Origin: Hormiphora californensis
Taxonomy: Eukaryota > Animalia > Ctenophora
NCBI GenBank assembly: GCA_020137815.1
Contig: CM035355.1
Coordinates: 8,246,001-8,310,000 of the forward strand
Direction of reading: 5' to 3'
Length of the DNA stretch: 64,000 bases
In this document: piece after piece, positions 4,114 to 63,852 of the stretch
Layout of the letters: each line of letters begins with the position of its first letter
Numbering within the stretch: the stretch's first letter is position 1
Translations under genes and position numbers: made by a program
Notes under the pieces: generated by a model
What the model was told of the DNA's origin: nothing
Seen by the model: only the letters and a program-made list of their open reading frames with translations
Database searches by the model: none

Positions 4114-7100
4114 GGGTTGATAAACAGGGGAGCGTGTGGAGACGTAGCTAATAATGCGGGGGTACCTGCTGTGACGGTGGTAGCTCAGTGCTACGATTCT
4201 CTTGGGGAACTAATACTAGACAAGTGAGTTGATCATTGCAAAGAGCGAATATCTATTATAAGCCAGCTACCGATATTAATTTGAGACGTTTTGGCCAAAA
4301 CCCCGAGACAAACACCAAAAGTGGTGTTGCCATTTCCCCACTCCCGACAATTACAATTACATTCGTAATACTTATAGGAAACTCTCTGTCCTTTCTGAAT
4401 AGATCATGTGAATTTTACCCATCATATTTCCACTTAACTTCATTGTGCATAACATTTTAATGGCCCTACTGTACAATAATTCCTGGTGTAATTATAATAT
4501 AGGACTCTTATTGGGCAGCCTCAACCACATACGGAAGCTGGTGCACTGTGTTAAATGTCTCGTACGGATGTGTATTTGTCACCATAGAGACACGTATATA
4601 TAGGAAACGGAGATAATTCGTCAGATTTGAGCAACTTTTGATGGTGCACAGTGAAGCGATGTGGGTTCAGGGTAACTTCAGGGGGACAGAGTTTTAAATT
4701 AGCACCATGCGGGGACAGTTCTATAATAACTCTACAAAAATAGGTTCAACTTCCTCTACCTTCATGAATACACATGAATATCCATAATACAGTGATTTAC
4801 CGACCTCCTCGGAGGAGGAAATTACTTTATGTTACTCAATTAATTAATTAACTAATTAACATTACAGGTATAAAAAGTACGACGAGTATGAGAACTCTAT
4901 CACCTGTAATTTGGAGCCACTGGTTAAAAGGGACATTGGTAAAACTGATATGGAGAACGCAAAGGGAAACTATTCTTTTTACCAGGTAAAATTGTTATGT
5001 TCTAACCCTTCCTCCTCGCGAAAAGAAGGTCGAGCTAGGCAACTTTAAAAGAGTTGGACTCACGGCCGTCACTATAATAGAGCGTTCCCGAAAGGGGTTC
5101 ACGCCCATGGCAACTGCCCTTATGCCAAATCAAATCACCACCTATACAAAATTCACAATGTCAGGTGTTAGTGTAACTAGTCACCCCTCCCTCCTAATCT
5201 AGGTGTTAGTTAGTACTGCTACGGGGGTAACTAATCACCCAGTTATTAAAGAGCTAACGGATAAGAAGTGGGATCTTTACGCTCAGAAACGCTTCATTTG
5301 CATTCTAGCTTGTAAGTATATTCATGAATTCTTACAAGACTGGTTGTAGTGAGAACAAACAACTTCTTCTTGACGCTTTAGTTCTGCAGCAGTAGTGGTG
5401 TAATTGTACAAATGTCGACGGAGCTACCACATTTGTGGTAACCACAAATGTGGTCATCGCTGTCAGACCAATGCTCTGACAGGGTCATCGCGAATCCATA
5501 CTGAAACTTGCTTTTTCTCTTTGTTACTGACACTAACCAATGGTATACATTGGCAGGTTTGGCGTTTTTCAACATATTCTGGACAGCTATCTACATCTGG
5601 CCCCACGCCCATGGGTCCAATCAATCTGTCATGATCCTGGGAGTGTGTGTTATGTTCCTAGGGGGATCTGGGATACTAATGCATATGTTTACTAACGCAT
5701 ACGTTATCTTGTGAGTACCTGCACAGCTGTTGTACTAATTTAATAGTACATATCGTGACTTTGTGGGCTTCGGGCTTCCAAAAGGGCAAAAGACCTAGAA
5801 GCACTGAAGCAGATCTATATAACCCATTTCGGTAATATTCCTACACAATTCATACCCCTACAACTGACAACAGTTAATTAATAACCCCTAATCCTCCTTC
5901 CCCCATGATGCAGTCGAAAAAGAAAGTTTGCAAACTACGTTGGCAATATGTATGACGAGGCTTATGAGTTTGAGAAAACATCAAAACACCCACTGACTGA
6001 GAACCAGTTCAAACACGTGAAGAACGAGTACAAGAAGAGCAGTAAAATCAGAAGTTTTGCCCCCATGATGGTTGTATTTTTCTGGAAATGTATTGTGGAC
6101 TGTCTGTGGTTGACATTCCTGGGTCTGAGGGTGCAGGCCTTTATAGCAGGGGACGAGCACCATGTGGATGAGATGGAGGGAGGTAATGGGACGGAGGAGG
6201 TCAGCGAGTACGCAGAGGGCGCCTCACTTTACCTAATTGGTGAGTACAGAGGGAGCCTCACTTTACCTAATTGGTAAGTACGCAGAGGGCGCCTCACTTT
6301 ACCTAATTGGTGAGTAGTACTGCAGGCCAGGGTCTAATTCAAAGAAAAATGTTACATATTTCCCTCCCTACACAACACCTCCCTCATGATAGTGAGTGAT
6401 ATCGTGATATCCCTCCTACTGATAATGACCCCTCCCTAGTGAGTGATATCGTGATATCCCTCCTACTGATAATGACCCCTCCCCCTCCCTAGTGAGTGAT
6501 ATCGTGATATCCCTTCTACTGATAATGATTTGGATCCAGCTGTTTGTGGCGTTTGCTATCTCCAAGACTGTGGGACGATTTGTGGTCTTCACCCGTGAGG
6601 TGGTTAGAGCTGTTCTGATCTGCTGAGCTGTATCGCATGCTCTGTGCTACATGATCTGCTGCTGAGTATCGCATATCGTGTTATGTGTCAAGCTGTTATA
6701 TCATGTATATGTTATGAGCTGCTAAGATATCAACACAAACCAAACTAGAATCCTAGCTTTGATAAAACTCTGAGCACCACAAGATAGTAAAATGTAACAC
6801 AGTGTTGTACTCTTGCTTCTGTACTTCAGCACTAAATTGATAAAGAAGGGTGTTTGGAAAATGTTTCCTCCAAGACCCCTATCATTAATTTTAGTAACTA
6901 ACTGGGTTACTATTTAGTAACTATAAACTGGGTGTAATACAGAATGTTTGGTTTGCGTTGGTGACATTGCAGCAGCAGTAGCAGTGACCCGCCCATTTAA
7001 TAACCCCCTGTGTACTAACCTGCAGGTAGTGAAGGACGTGGGACAAGTGTTCTCTGTGTACGTGGTGCTGTTCATTCCCATGACGGCCATCTTCTGGAAG

Positions 7101-61441: not shown

Positions 61442-63852
61442 TCAGCTTTCGTATGAGACACAGAAAGCTTTTTGCATCTGTAATGCCAGTCCAGTAACAT
61501 GCAGTATTCCGTTCTAAGAAAGAGAGAGGGGTTAGAAAGTGAGAGAGAGAGAGAGAGAGAGAGAGAGGAGAGAGAGAGAGGAGAGAGAGATGAGAGAGAG
61601 AGATGAGACGAAGGAGATGAGAGAGAGACGATGAGAGAGAAGAGAGGAGGAGAGAGAGAGAGAGAGAGGAGAATATGAGAGAGAGAGACGAGAGAGGAGA
61701 GGAGAGAGAGAGAGATGAGAGAGAGAGAGAGAGAGAGAGAGAGAGAGAGAGAGAGAGAGAGAGAGAGTTGAGAATTAGTACAATACGGAAATTAAGATTA
61801 CTCTGTTTAATTACCTTGTAAGTGTAATTCGTCCAATCATCTCTGCTCTCGTTGATTTTAACTGTCCTGGGCGCTTTCTCTAACCCACTGAGAGAGAGAG
61901 AGAGACATGTTGTGAGGACAGGGGAGAGAGTAAAGACAGAGAGAGAGTAGAGACAGAGAGAGAGAGTAAAGACAGAGAGAGAGTAAAGACATGTTGAAAT
62001 GTTTACAAAGAACATTGTACAAATGTTCCTGAACGTTTTGAAAGAAACATGACAGTACTGGCTAATGAGTTTTCTAATGGTCGACTTTACTAGAATGAAG
62101 AATCGTGGTAAGAGTTGTCGAGTAAGCAGTGGACAACTACAAGAGACATGACATACAAGAGACATGATCGGACATGATCGGACAGGATTCACCCCCCACA
62201 ATCACACCCATGACAATAGGAGTGTATAATACCTGATAACTATTTCTTGGAGGGTGTTGGTATTATTGTATCCTGGGTAGAGGAGTTTAACTTCACTCGT
62301 TACACGAGTACCGGAGGCGTTGAAGTGAACTGTCTGATACATGTCCTGGGGTAATGTACATGTGAGTGGAGTGTGGATTAGTACATGTCCTGGGGTAATG
62401 TACATGTGAGTGGAGTGTGGATTAGTCTGGTACATGTCCTGGGGTAATGTACATGTGAGTGGAGTGTGGATTAGTCTGGTACATGTCCTGGGTAATGTAC
62501 ATGTGAGTGGAGTGTGGATTAGTCTGGTACATGTCCTGGGGTAATGTACATGTGAGTGGAGTGTGGATTAGTCTGGTACATGTCCTGGGGTAATGTACAT
62601 GTGAGTGGAGTGTGGATTAGTCTGGTACATGTCCTGGGGTAATGTACATGTGAGTGGAGTGTGGATTAGTCTGGTACATGTCCTGGATAGGGGGGGGGGG
62701 GGTAATGTACATGTGATGTACAATGTACATGGGGGTAATATAGTTTACCTTTCGAAGGAAAAGGTTTGGGAATATCAACTTTAAATTCTTCTTCTTTAGT
62801 CTGATTGATAATTTCAACTAACTAATCAATACCTTTGATATCGTGTCTTCAGAAACACCATCATCCACAAACAGGAAGCCTGAAGCTGACTTATCAGCTG
62901 CTAGATATACCTCCACTATGTAGTCCCCTGACTTCAGCCTGGGAGACAGAGAGGGGAGTTAGAGACAGAGAGGAGTTAGAGAAGGGGAGAGAGGGGAGTT
63001 AGAGAGGGGAGTTAGAGAAGGGGAGAGGGATTATAGACAGAGAACTACAAAGCATATTTAAACCAAGAAGCGGAACCCCAAAGGTTTCTCTAATAGTTTC
63101 TATGACTCACATTTCAGAGGTTGAGTTAGCGGTATTTAGATGCCTAACCACCACAGAACCGCCCCTTATAAAGGTAGGAATTGTCTCCATTGTTACCGAG
63201 ATATCCTTCTTCCCATTTCCAGATGTGCTCACTACAGCTCTTGTCTCACCGTCATACCAGAGGTTATCCACCCCACCAGGGAAGTACACCTCCCTCTTTG
63301 TAACTCCCTGAAATTGAATAGCAGTTGTTTGTAACTCCTTGGGGGAGGGTGAGTTTGTTACGGAGGAGAGGAAGGGGAGACCCCACCGGGGAAATACACC
63401 TCCCTCTTTGTAACTCCCTGGGAGGGGGGGGGGGGGATTTTGTTGTTACTAAACCATGTCACAATGGAGGGCATTCAAAATGAAACTGTAACTGTATGAA
63501 CTCAAGGATTTGTAAATGACATTCTACAGCTTGGAACAAGTGACTAAAGTAATTCCCTAACATGTCCCAAGATCACCCGCACCGGGGGAGGGAGAGAGCC
63601 GAGAGGTGTGTTTACCTTTATTGTTACAGGTGTCACCATGATAGCATCTCCCAACATAAACTGACTGACAATGTCCAGTGTTGAATTATCATCTAGATAA
63701 TCAAAGAAGAGTGGTTTAACAACCATAGCTCCAACAGTGTGAGCTAGATAGAACTGGGAGTAGAGGTAGGGGAGGAGCTTGTAACGAGTCTCAATTGATG
63801 TCTTGATACGGGCTGTTGCTTCAGCTGAGAATTCTGTATCCGGTGAGGTACC
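61442..63852 (-). CDS. Glycoside hydrolase family 31 alpha-glucosidase, 3' part (continues beyond window)
   Basis: Exons ~63616-63852, 63111-63307, 62833-62937, 62233-62345, 61817-61887, 61442-61513. Motifs RYKLLPYLYSQFYLAH..G..VVKPLFFDYLDD..QFMLGDAIMVTPV, VYFPG..WYD, IPTFIRGG and SGFLFVDDGVS are typical of the GH31 C-terminal region. Confidence 0.9.
62335..62690 (-). repeat. Acceptor-echo array, ~49-bp unit x 7-8
   Basis: Minus-strand unit CTAATCCACACTCCACTCACATGTACATTACCCCAG|GACATGTAYCAGA. Confidence 0.92.

What the first reader, a model, noticed from the sequence alone, without database searches (positions are those of the whole stretch)
5160..63425. Splice-junction 'echo' arrays: tandem repeats anchored on exon-intron boundaries in all four genes
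Seen: about 15 junctions carry tandem copies of a unit made of the exon edge + GT or AG + adjacent intron signal (branch-like CTAAC/CTGAT and pyrimidine tract for acceptors). Acceptor arrays: 5162/5201, 6391-6530, 11267-11464, 13782-14320, 17521-19045, 22050-22473, 22745-22890, 23990-24785, 25612-26205, 41195-41310, 44130-45112, 62335-62690, 63270-63420. Donor arrays: 6206-6316, 27781-28198, 41560-42040. The units are unrelated in sequence (35-150 bp) but share one geometry: the array runs into the intron and only the exon-proximal copy continues the ORF. Inference: a genome-wide process duplicates splice junctions, and the spliceosome must ignore up to ~15 near-perfect decoy sites per junction (strict exon definition, recursive splicing or NMD clean-up). 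I know of no description of this as a system.
Basis: partly seen in the sequence, partly recalled or inferred. Interest (0 to 1): 0.9.

Follow-up and report, generated by a model that had tools for sequence, protein, structure and literature searches.

The report
Comb-jelly splice-junction "mirage" minisatellites
In four genes of a sea-gooseberry comb jelly, about one exon border in six has been copied head-to-tail into the neighbouring intron, leaving rows of spare splice sites that differ between individuals and are likely harmless clutter of a kind already described in lancelets.

Summary
The arrays are real. On my models of four genes (two TRPA-like channels, a Kv channel, a GH31 glucosidase; closest proteins are Pleurobrachia bachei), 12 of 46 acceptors and 4 of 46 donors carry tandem copies of their own junction. 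About 0.4 of each would be expected by chance. Short-read contigs confirm three short arrays and show other units at the same junctions, or likely absence, on other haplotypes. Three RNA contigs give the exon-proximal joins, but from animals whose alleles are unknown. Enrichment lies in the amplified arrays: 11 of 15 with three or more copies span a junction (2.9-5.9 expected), against 1 of 12 two-copy duplications. The window was chosen for being striking, so these P-values are optimistic. These are the 'mirage' minisatellites of amphioxus, with the human F7 VNTR as a donor-side case. This scan found them before in other genomes (71 notes, at least 8 genomes; none named a ctenophore). What is added is a ctenophore example, high density, more acceptor than donor arrays (P=0.052), recurrence at the same junction, and short introns. 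Most likely a tolerated by-product, not a regulatory device.

The parts
4114..11851 (+). Gene A, TRPA-like ankyrin channel, 11 exons in the window (5' part not found in the window)
   Evidence: Open 597-aa model, 97-99% identical to P. bachei P0001 over two blocks; three joins seen in RNA contigs
5163..5240 (+). Acceptor echo of the exon starting 5203: one decayed decoy at 5164
   Evidence: run X1 shows a further 54-base tandem joint 5234->5181 over this acceptor
6206..6316 (+). Donor array, 34-36-bp unit; real donor 6240, decoys 6274 and 6310
   Evidence: RNA contig leaves at 6239; a second sample shows a different unit of about 100 bp, joint 6253->6155
6390..6528 (+). Acceptor array, 47-53-bp unit; two decoys, real exon starts 6493
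11266..11464 (+). Acceptor array of the last exon of gene A (starts 11455), 35-42-bp unit, four decoys
13781..14320 (+). The same acceptor array (14 copies) in the second copy of a 2.86-kb tandem segment; not an independent junction
16650..28293 (-). Gene B, TRPA-like ankyrin channel, 16 exons as modelled
   Evidence: Open 749-aa model, Pfam ankyrin hits, 23% identity to gene A; no external protein or RNA check
17521..19045 (-). Acceptor array of the exon starting 17577; 121-162-bp unit with 57 exon bases and a C-rich tract; ten full decoys plus a 3-base remnant at 19040
22050..22473 (-). Acceptor array of the exon starting 22063; 35-bp unit, eleven decoys
22745..22890 (-). Decayed acceptor echo of the exon starting 22752; four decoys, 25-38-bp spacing
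23989..24786 (-). Acceptor array of the exon starting 24042; 136-159-bp unit, five decoys
25612..26205 (-). Acceptor array of the exon starting 25641; three decoys with C-rich spacers
27773..28197 (-). Donor array after the exon ending 28162; 47-bp unit, eight decoys
38148..53470 (-). Gene C, Shaker-type Kv channel, 17 exons as modelled
   Evidence: Open 585-aa model, BTB_2 and Ion_trans hits
41195..41310 (-). Decayed acceptor echo of the exon starting 41200; two decoys
41557..42041 (-). Donor array after the exon ending 42032; 52-bp unit, nine decoys, all scoring below the real donor
44128..45121 (-). Acceptor array of the exon starting 44164; 61-bp unit, fifteen decoys
53144..53201 (-).
61442..63852 (-). 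Gene D, GH31 alpha-glucosidase, last six exons
   Evidence: 265-aa model aligns without gaps at 94% to P0021; RNA joins
62332..62686 (-). Acceptor array of the exon starting 62345; 49-bp unit, seven decoys
   Evidence: RNA loose end reads the exon-proximal copy
63270..63420 (-). Acceptor echo of the exon starting 63307; one 38-base copy and one short copy, each with a different spacer
   Evidence: present in run X2, skipped by joints in X5 and by a second X2 contig

Best explanation
These are 'mirage' minisatellites: 16 of 92 exon borders examined carry head-to-tail copies of a 25-160-base piece that spans the border, likely started by ordinary slippage or repair errors, likely amplified by unequal exchange, and likely tolerated because the spliceosome prefers the copy next to the intact exon. 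Step 1 (shown): the copied piece holds the splice dinucleotide, nearby intron signal and only part of the exon, so one complete exon remains. Step 2 (inferred): several units end in short microhomologies between exon and intron, as slippage or end-joining would leave. Step 3 (shown for this window): the bias towards junctions appears in arrays of three or more copies, not in two-copy duplications, so it acts on growth or persistence rather than on first origin. Step 4 (inferred, about 35%): intron alleles in this animal are often unalignable, so exon sequence is the main homology between haplotypes; units that contain exon sequence can mispair with any allele and grow, and unequal exchange between unlike alleles would also explain why the outermost acceptor often differs from the inner ones. 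Step 5 (inferred): the exon-proximal site wins through exon-centred recognition and exonic context, with nonsense-mediated decay removing leaks.
For: Anatomy and counts. Units are unrelated to each other apart from a C-rich simple repeat in three gene B arrays, and occur nowhere else in the window. Blind caller, strict classing: 11 of 15 arrays with 3 or more copies span a junction, 2.9-5.9 expected, P 3e-6 to 5e-3; 1 of 12 two-copy duplications, 1.9-4.0 expected. Hand-merged list: 12 of 14 with 3 or more copies, 16 of 27 in all. Polymorphism: another unit at 5234->5181 in X1, another at 6253->6155 in X5; joints skipping 63311-63419 or more in X5 and X2; about 5 versus 14 copies in the two segment copies. 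Introns replaced between samples: joints 5721->5909, 7163->7460, 63309->63607. RNA contigs of run X7 give the exon-proximal donor 6239 and acceptors 63307 and 62345. 51 of 68 listed acceptor decoys and 10 of 21 donor decoys score within 1 bit of, or above, the real site, so strength alone cannot choose; 65 of 68 and 21 of 21 would shift the frame or add a stop. Published: mirages do not disturb splicing and vary in length (PMC3087553); F7 pseudo-donors are functional but unused (PMC1557585); exon-centric proximity rule (PMC9225289).
Against: The window was picked because it is striking, so the P-values are optimistic and say nothing genome-wide. With all 27 arrays together, enrichment is weak once long introns are capped (P 0.03, 0.1, 0.24). 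Many two-copy intronic hits are low-scoring and may be chance. The RNA evidence is three single contigs at depth 2.6-4.6 from a seawater run with alleles about 5% different; those animals may lack the arrays, and the 6239 join does not tell which of three acceptors was used. Collapsed introns are short (median 190 bases), where the human data in PMC9225289 predict the intron-centric choice, that is the decoys. Echoed acceptors are C-richer than others (0.44 vs 0.27, P=0.002), which also fits a sequence-driven hotspot. Microhomologies were read by eye and not tested against chance. Step 4 has no direct test: the letters of the alternative intron alleles were not shown.
Confidence: 0.72

Rival explanations
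1. A splice-linked mutational hotspot: C-rich acceptor tracts (G-rich on the template strand), R-loops or polymerase pausing cause breaks and slippage at exon edges, mainly at acceptors.
For: Echoed acceptors are C-richer and have more C runs; 12 acceptor against 4 donor arrays, P=0.052; different units at the same junction on different haplotypes; G-quadruplex-type motifs in the arrays at 17521, 23989, 25612 and 63420.
Against: Only 4 of 16 junction arrays hold such a motif; the 41557-42041 donor unit is AT-rich; two-copy duplications show no junction excess; C-richness may be a result of expansion. It can act together with the best explanation.
Confidence: 0.15
2. No real bias: tandem duplications arise everywhere, those inside exons are purged, and in a short-intron genome many survivors touch a junction by geometry; this window is an extreme draw.
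For: 18-37% of survivors are expected to span a junction by geometry alone (4.8-9.9 of 27); the all-array test is not significant with introns capped at 500 or 300 bases; large non-junction arrays exist.
Against: Arrays of three or more copies stay enriched under every cap tried; the same junctions are amplified with other units in other haplotypes.
Confidence: 0.09
3. An adaptive splicing device: decoys tune output through unproductive splicing and decay, or serve as recursive-splicing steps or spare sites.
For: Most decoys keep AG or GT and score like the real site; nearly all would lead to a stop or frameshift.
Against: Arrays differ or appear absent between haplotypes; units share no design; no excess of GT-starting exons, 3 of 12 vs 8 of 34; stops are expected in any intron sequence; intact dinucleotides are expected in young, homogenised copies.
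Confidence: 0.03
4. Assembly stutter from noisy long reads.
Against: An X2 short-read contig spans 63280-63772 with no mismatch and one gap; X5 covers 6256-6413; units carry recurring variant patterns, such as alternating dimers at 41557-42041 and repeated multi-base variants at 27773-28197.
Confidence: 0.01

Closest known systems
Amphioxus 'mirage' minisatellites (Adh3; globins BflGb6 and BflGb9; troponin C; PGBD5). Seen: passages of PMC3087553 and PMC3902484. The original Adh3 paper (Canestro et al. 2002, PMC117041) was not held and is cited through those two.
   Same: Tandem copies of an exon-intron boundary at either end of the intron; units of 10-160 bp; many copies keep AG or GT; length differs between haplotypes; boundary units escape homogenisation; normal transcripts seen; origin unexplained.
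   Different: A ctenophore, not a cephalochordate; measured density of 16 of 92 junctions in four neighbouring genes; more acceptors than donors; different units at one junction on different haplotypes; short collapsed introns; no RT-PCR from the same animal and no test of somatic instability here.
Human F7 intron-7 37-bp VNTR. Seen: abstract, outline and Discussion of PMC1557585.
   Same: First unit spans the exon-intron border; identical pseudo-donors follow; only the exon-proximal one is used; copy number is polymorphic.
   Different: A single donor-side locus, explained by 5'-to-3' scanning. Scanning would favour the decoys in acceptor arrays, which are the majority here.
Intron gain by tandem genomic duplication (Rogers model). 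Seen: passage in PMC3087553 and search listing of PMC4974935.
   Same: Tandem duplication that carries AG/GT signals, with the redundant copies spliced out.
   Different: Here the duplication straddles an existing junction and lengthens an existing intron; no new intron position was shown.

Membership tests
Mirage minisatellites | Tandem duplication whose unit spans an exon-intron boundary | tested here: met
   16 of 92 junctions
Mirage minisatellites | Both 5' and 3' boundaries can be duplicated | tested here: met
   12 acceptors, 4 donors
Mirage minisatellites | Unit length about 10-160 bp, unrelated between loci | tested here: met
   Units 25-162 bp, with one 348-base outer spacer at 25853-26201; no unit-to-unit similarity with low-complexity masking
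Mirage minisatellites | Many copies keep the AG or GT signal | tested here: met
   65 acceptor and 20 donor decoys after dropping 4 chance-like hits from 89 listed; the search required AG or GT, so copies that lost it were not counted
Mirage minisatellites | Length instability between haplotypes | tested here: met
   Extra or different units and skipped echoes in X1, X2, X5 contigs; contig depth is not a copy number
Mirage minisatellites | Inner units homogenised, boundary units divergent | tested here: met
   By inspection the outermost acceptor differs from the inner spacer in about 6 of 12 acceptor arrays
Mirage minisatellites | Regular splicing is not disturbed | tested here: inconclusive
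   Three RNA contigs give canonical joins, but from animals whose alleles are unknown
Mirage minisatellites | Somatic instability | not testable with these tools
   Only assembled contigs were available
Recursive splice sites | AG directly followed by a donor-like GT at each step | tested here: not met
   Echoed exons start with GT in 3 of 12, others in 8 of 34
Intron-generating transposons (introners) | One dispersed element family shared between loci | tested here: not met
   16 units match neither each other nor other places in the window, apart from a C-rich simple repeat and the segment duplicate; window only

The most novel reading that the evidence does not exclude
In this very polymorphic comb jelly, exons are islands of homology between haplotypes whose introns no longer align. 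Exon edges then become recurrent exchange points that duplicate, amplify and replace splice acceptors at about a quarter of introns. The spliceosome must pick the exon-proximal site against upstream decoys transcribed first, in short introns, which would mean robust exon-centred recognition in the earliest-branching animal lineage and would give mirages their first mechanism.
Probability: 0.25. Interest if true: 0.7.

Novelty: new member of a known kind. Interest (0 to 1): 0.38.

Why it matters
The origin of mirages is stated as unclear in PMC3087553. This window gives a dense, polymorphic set in which one junction carries different units in different haplotypes, so origin and growth can be separated with population data. 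Acceptor arrays are natural competition tests: up to 15 equal sites are transcribed before the real one, in an animal with short introns. They could show whether exon-centred splice-site choice operates in ctenophores. In practice the arrays can mislead gene prediction: the public P. bachei model P0001 reads through the 6240 donor and includes a wrong-frame copy of the next exon.

Tried and rejected
No whole genome is held, so no genome-wide test was possible. The run search listed no RNA holder on record; run X8 gave 0 contigs on gene A and only 2 short partial matches on gene D, which is no evidence either way. A candidate 53-base exon at 62800-62748 was dropped because the RNA contig and P0021 skip it. 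My first Kv model had a wrong acceptor (20 stops) and was corrected. Four chance-like decoy hits (45300, 42717, 38713, 52713) were dropped from the 89 listed. In one search I merged arrays by hand and added junction-guided ones; one search repeats the test on the blind caller's list, with 22767-22890 and 63270-63420 counted as not spanning a junction. Recursive splicing, a shared transposon and a general G-quadruplex cause were tested and not supported. Literature searches for a ctenophore case found none: 2 unrelated hits; 4 hits; passages of PMC8527503 on Hormiphora show no such arrays; 1 unrelated hit; two searches returned 0. The library lacks most subscription papers, and supplements were not read. 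PMC117041 was not held. Gene B has no external protein check.
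Full report
Setting. The window is eukaryotic and no whole genome is held. Exon queries found proteins 96% identical to gene A and gene D; P0001 is labelled Pleurobrachia bachei and P0021 carries the same kind of EukProt label. 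The animal is therefore a sea gooseberry or a close relative. I modelled four genes by hand from the sequence: A (+, TRPA-like, 11 exons), B (-, TRPA-like, 16), C (-, Kv, 17) and D (-, GH31, 6). All 46 introns are GT-AG and all frames are open. Model D matches P0021 without gaps at 94% over 265 aa. Model A matches P0001 in two blocks. B and C rest on open frames and domain hits, so a missed exon could change the denominators slightly.

The observation. Tandem Repeats Finder and a blind self-alignment recover most listed arrays, and the junction search recovers the decayed ones. A junction 12-mer recurs in its own intron at 10 of 46 acceptors and 4 of 46 donors, against 0.39 and 0.44 expected from other junctions' 12-mers. 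Two shorter decayed echoes raise acceptors to 12. That is 16 of 92 junctions, in 13 of 46 introns. The arrays at 11267 and 13782 are one junction in a duplicated 2.86-kb segment, with about 5 and 14 copies. Units are 25-162 bp and unrelated.

Real, and polymorphic. Short-read contigs were laid on 4050-7880 (X1, X5, X7, X8) and 62705-64000 (X7, X8, X5, X2), which covers 4 of the 16 echoed junctions. X2 spans 63280-63772 with no mismatch and one gap, and X5 covers 6256-6413. X1 and X2 may be the sample behind the window, so they test assembly, not independence. X1 has an extra 54-base tandem joint over acceptor 5203. X5, a second sample, has a joint 6253->6155, a unit of about 100 bases where the window has 34-36, and summed depth of 2,500-13,000 at 6098-6609 against mostly 50-900 in the neighbouring bins; the tool warns that this is no copy number. 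At 63311-63419, X5 has no cover in two bins and has joints that skip the echo; a second X2 contig carries a different intron there. A 255-base X2 loose end at 62722 runs into a single acceptor and the exon start, which suggests, without proving, an allele lacking the 49-bp array. Several introns are replaced wholesale between samples.

Which site is used. Run X7, a seawater RNA library, gave 4 and 2 contigs. They confirm joins 7552-7645 and 7738-9519, leave exon 5 of gene A at 6239 (the exon-proximal donor), join 63616 to 63307 (the proximal acceptor), and continue from 62833 into the unique sequence of the exon at 62345. These are single contigs at depth 2.6-4.6 with alleles about 5% different. 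They show the canonical joins, not that decoys are ignored on this haplotype. A matrix trained on the window's 46 sites scores 51 of 68 listed acceptor decoys and 10 of 21 donor decoys within 1 bit of, or above, the real site. Use of a decoy would shift the frame or add a stop in 65 of 68 and 21 of 21 cases.

More than geometry? Under uniform duplication with exonic ones purged, 4.8-9.9 of 27 arrays should span a junction, depending on how long introns are capped. The blind list gives 12 of 27 (P 0.0008 to 0.24). Split by size, 11 of 15 arrays with three or more copies span a junction (2.9-5.9 expected, P 3e-6 to 5e-3), and 1 of 12 two-copy ones (1.9-4.0 expected). The hand-merged list gives 16 of 27 and 12 of 14. 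The window was selected for this pattern, so these values are optimistic. Acceptors outnumber donors (P=0.052), and echoed acceptors are C-richer (0.44 vs 0.27, P=0.002). G-quadruplex-type motifs occur in only 4 of 16 arrays. Echoed exons do not start with GT more often, 3 of 12 vs 8 of 34.

Mechanism. Shown: anatomy, polymorphism, size-dependent enrichment in this window, canonical joins. Inferred: a small duplication across the border, often between short microhomologies (read by eye), survives because one whole exon remains; it then grows by unequal exchange. I think growth is favoured at junctions because exon sequence stays homologous between haplotypes whose introns do not. This would also explain why the outermost acceptor differs from the inner spacer in about 6 of 12 acceptor arrays, although decay of boundary units explains that too (PMC3087553). 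Site choice is most likely exon-centred. PMC9225289 (passages) reports an exon-centric proximity rule for long introns and the opposite for introns under about 250 bases. Collapsed introns here have a median of 190 bases, so how a first duplication is tolerated is the open point.

What is known. [quoted passage not shown] PMC3902484 (passage) adds PGBD5 and troponin C. PMC1557585 (abstract and Discussion) dissects the F7 donor VNTR. The name 'mirage' and the F7 paper came to me as leads from earlier notes of this scan, and I checked them in the papers. One search shows 71 such notes in at least 8 genomes, with the word ctenophore in none. My searches found no ctenophore case in print, within a library that lacks most subscription papers. 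That ctenophores branch early among animals is general knowledge, not a call result.

Verdict. It is a new member of a known but little-studied kind, dense and testable, and most likely non-adaptive. Interest 0.38.

Noticed in passing
window 11266-16980: Tandem 2.86-kb segment holding the last exon of gene A; 11455-13780 and 14311-16640 are 98.8% identical. It may be a true duplication or two uncollapsed haplotypes.
   Followed up: partly
window 31290-33390 vs 37240-38620: Second copy of the last Kv exon and its flanks (94% identical), with a 37-bp unit expanded to 23 copies at 31929-32746 downstream of the stop.
   Followed up: partly
window about 1986-3445: Foldback-like element: 560-bp inverted arms 98.6% identical, built of an 11-bp repeat.
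   Followed up: partly
window 10371-10637 (-): HTH_psq domain (E 1e-7), likely a pogo-type transposase fragment, in the last intron of gene A.
   Followed up: partly
window 62948-63025 (-): Tandem copies of a branch-point-like and pyrimidine stretch just before acceptor 62938, without the AG; variable in X2 and X5.
   Followed up: partly
window 26552-26830 (-) and 21390-21530 (-): Open, exon-like stretches inside introns of gene B that end in donor-like sites; nested genes or missed exons. No Pfam hit for the first.
   Followed up: partly
window about 33383-36000, 45120-46300, 50817-52600, 54100-56150: N gaps and raw-read-like, homopolymer-rich sequence; local assembly quality is poor.
   Followed up: no
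window 46500-49700: Broken reading frames that look, from recall, like a decayed LINE retroelement inside the 9-kb Kv intron; four pieces gave no significant Pfam hit.
   Followed up: partly
window 4946-5100 and 7380-7428: Short dispersed repeats with very high contig depth in X1 and X5; the second also appears by eye near 11165 and 37471.
   Followed up: no
window 7893-9465, 19937-20665, 28642-30825: Large satellites (16, 34 and 51 bp units) that touch no modelled junction.
   Followed up: yes
P0001 residues 567-649: The public gene model reads through the 6240 donor and includes the next exon twice, once in the wrong frame with some changed residues; a duplicated exon or a second allele in that assembly.
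   Followed up: partly
window 5721-5909, 7163-7460, 63309-63607: Whole intron interiors are replaced between samples or haplotypes while exons align.
   Followed up: partly
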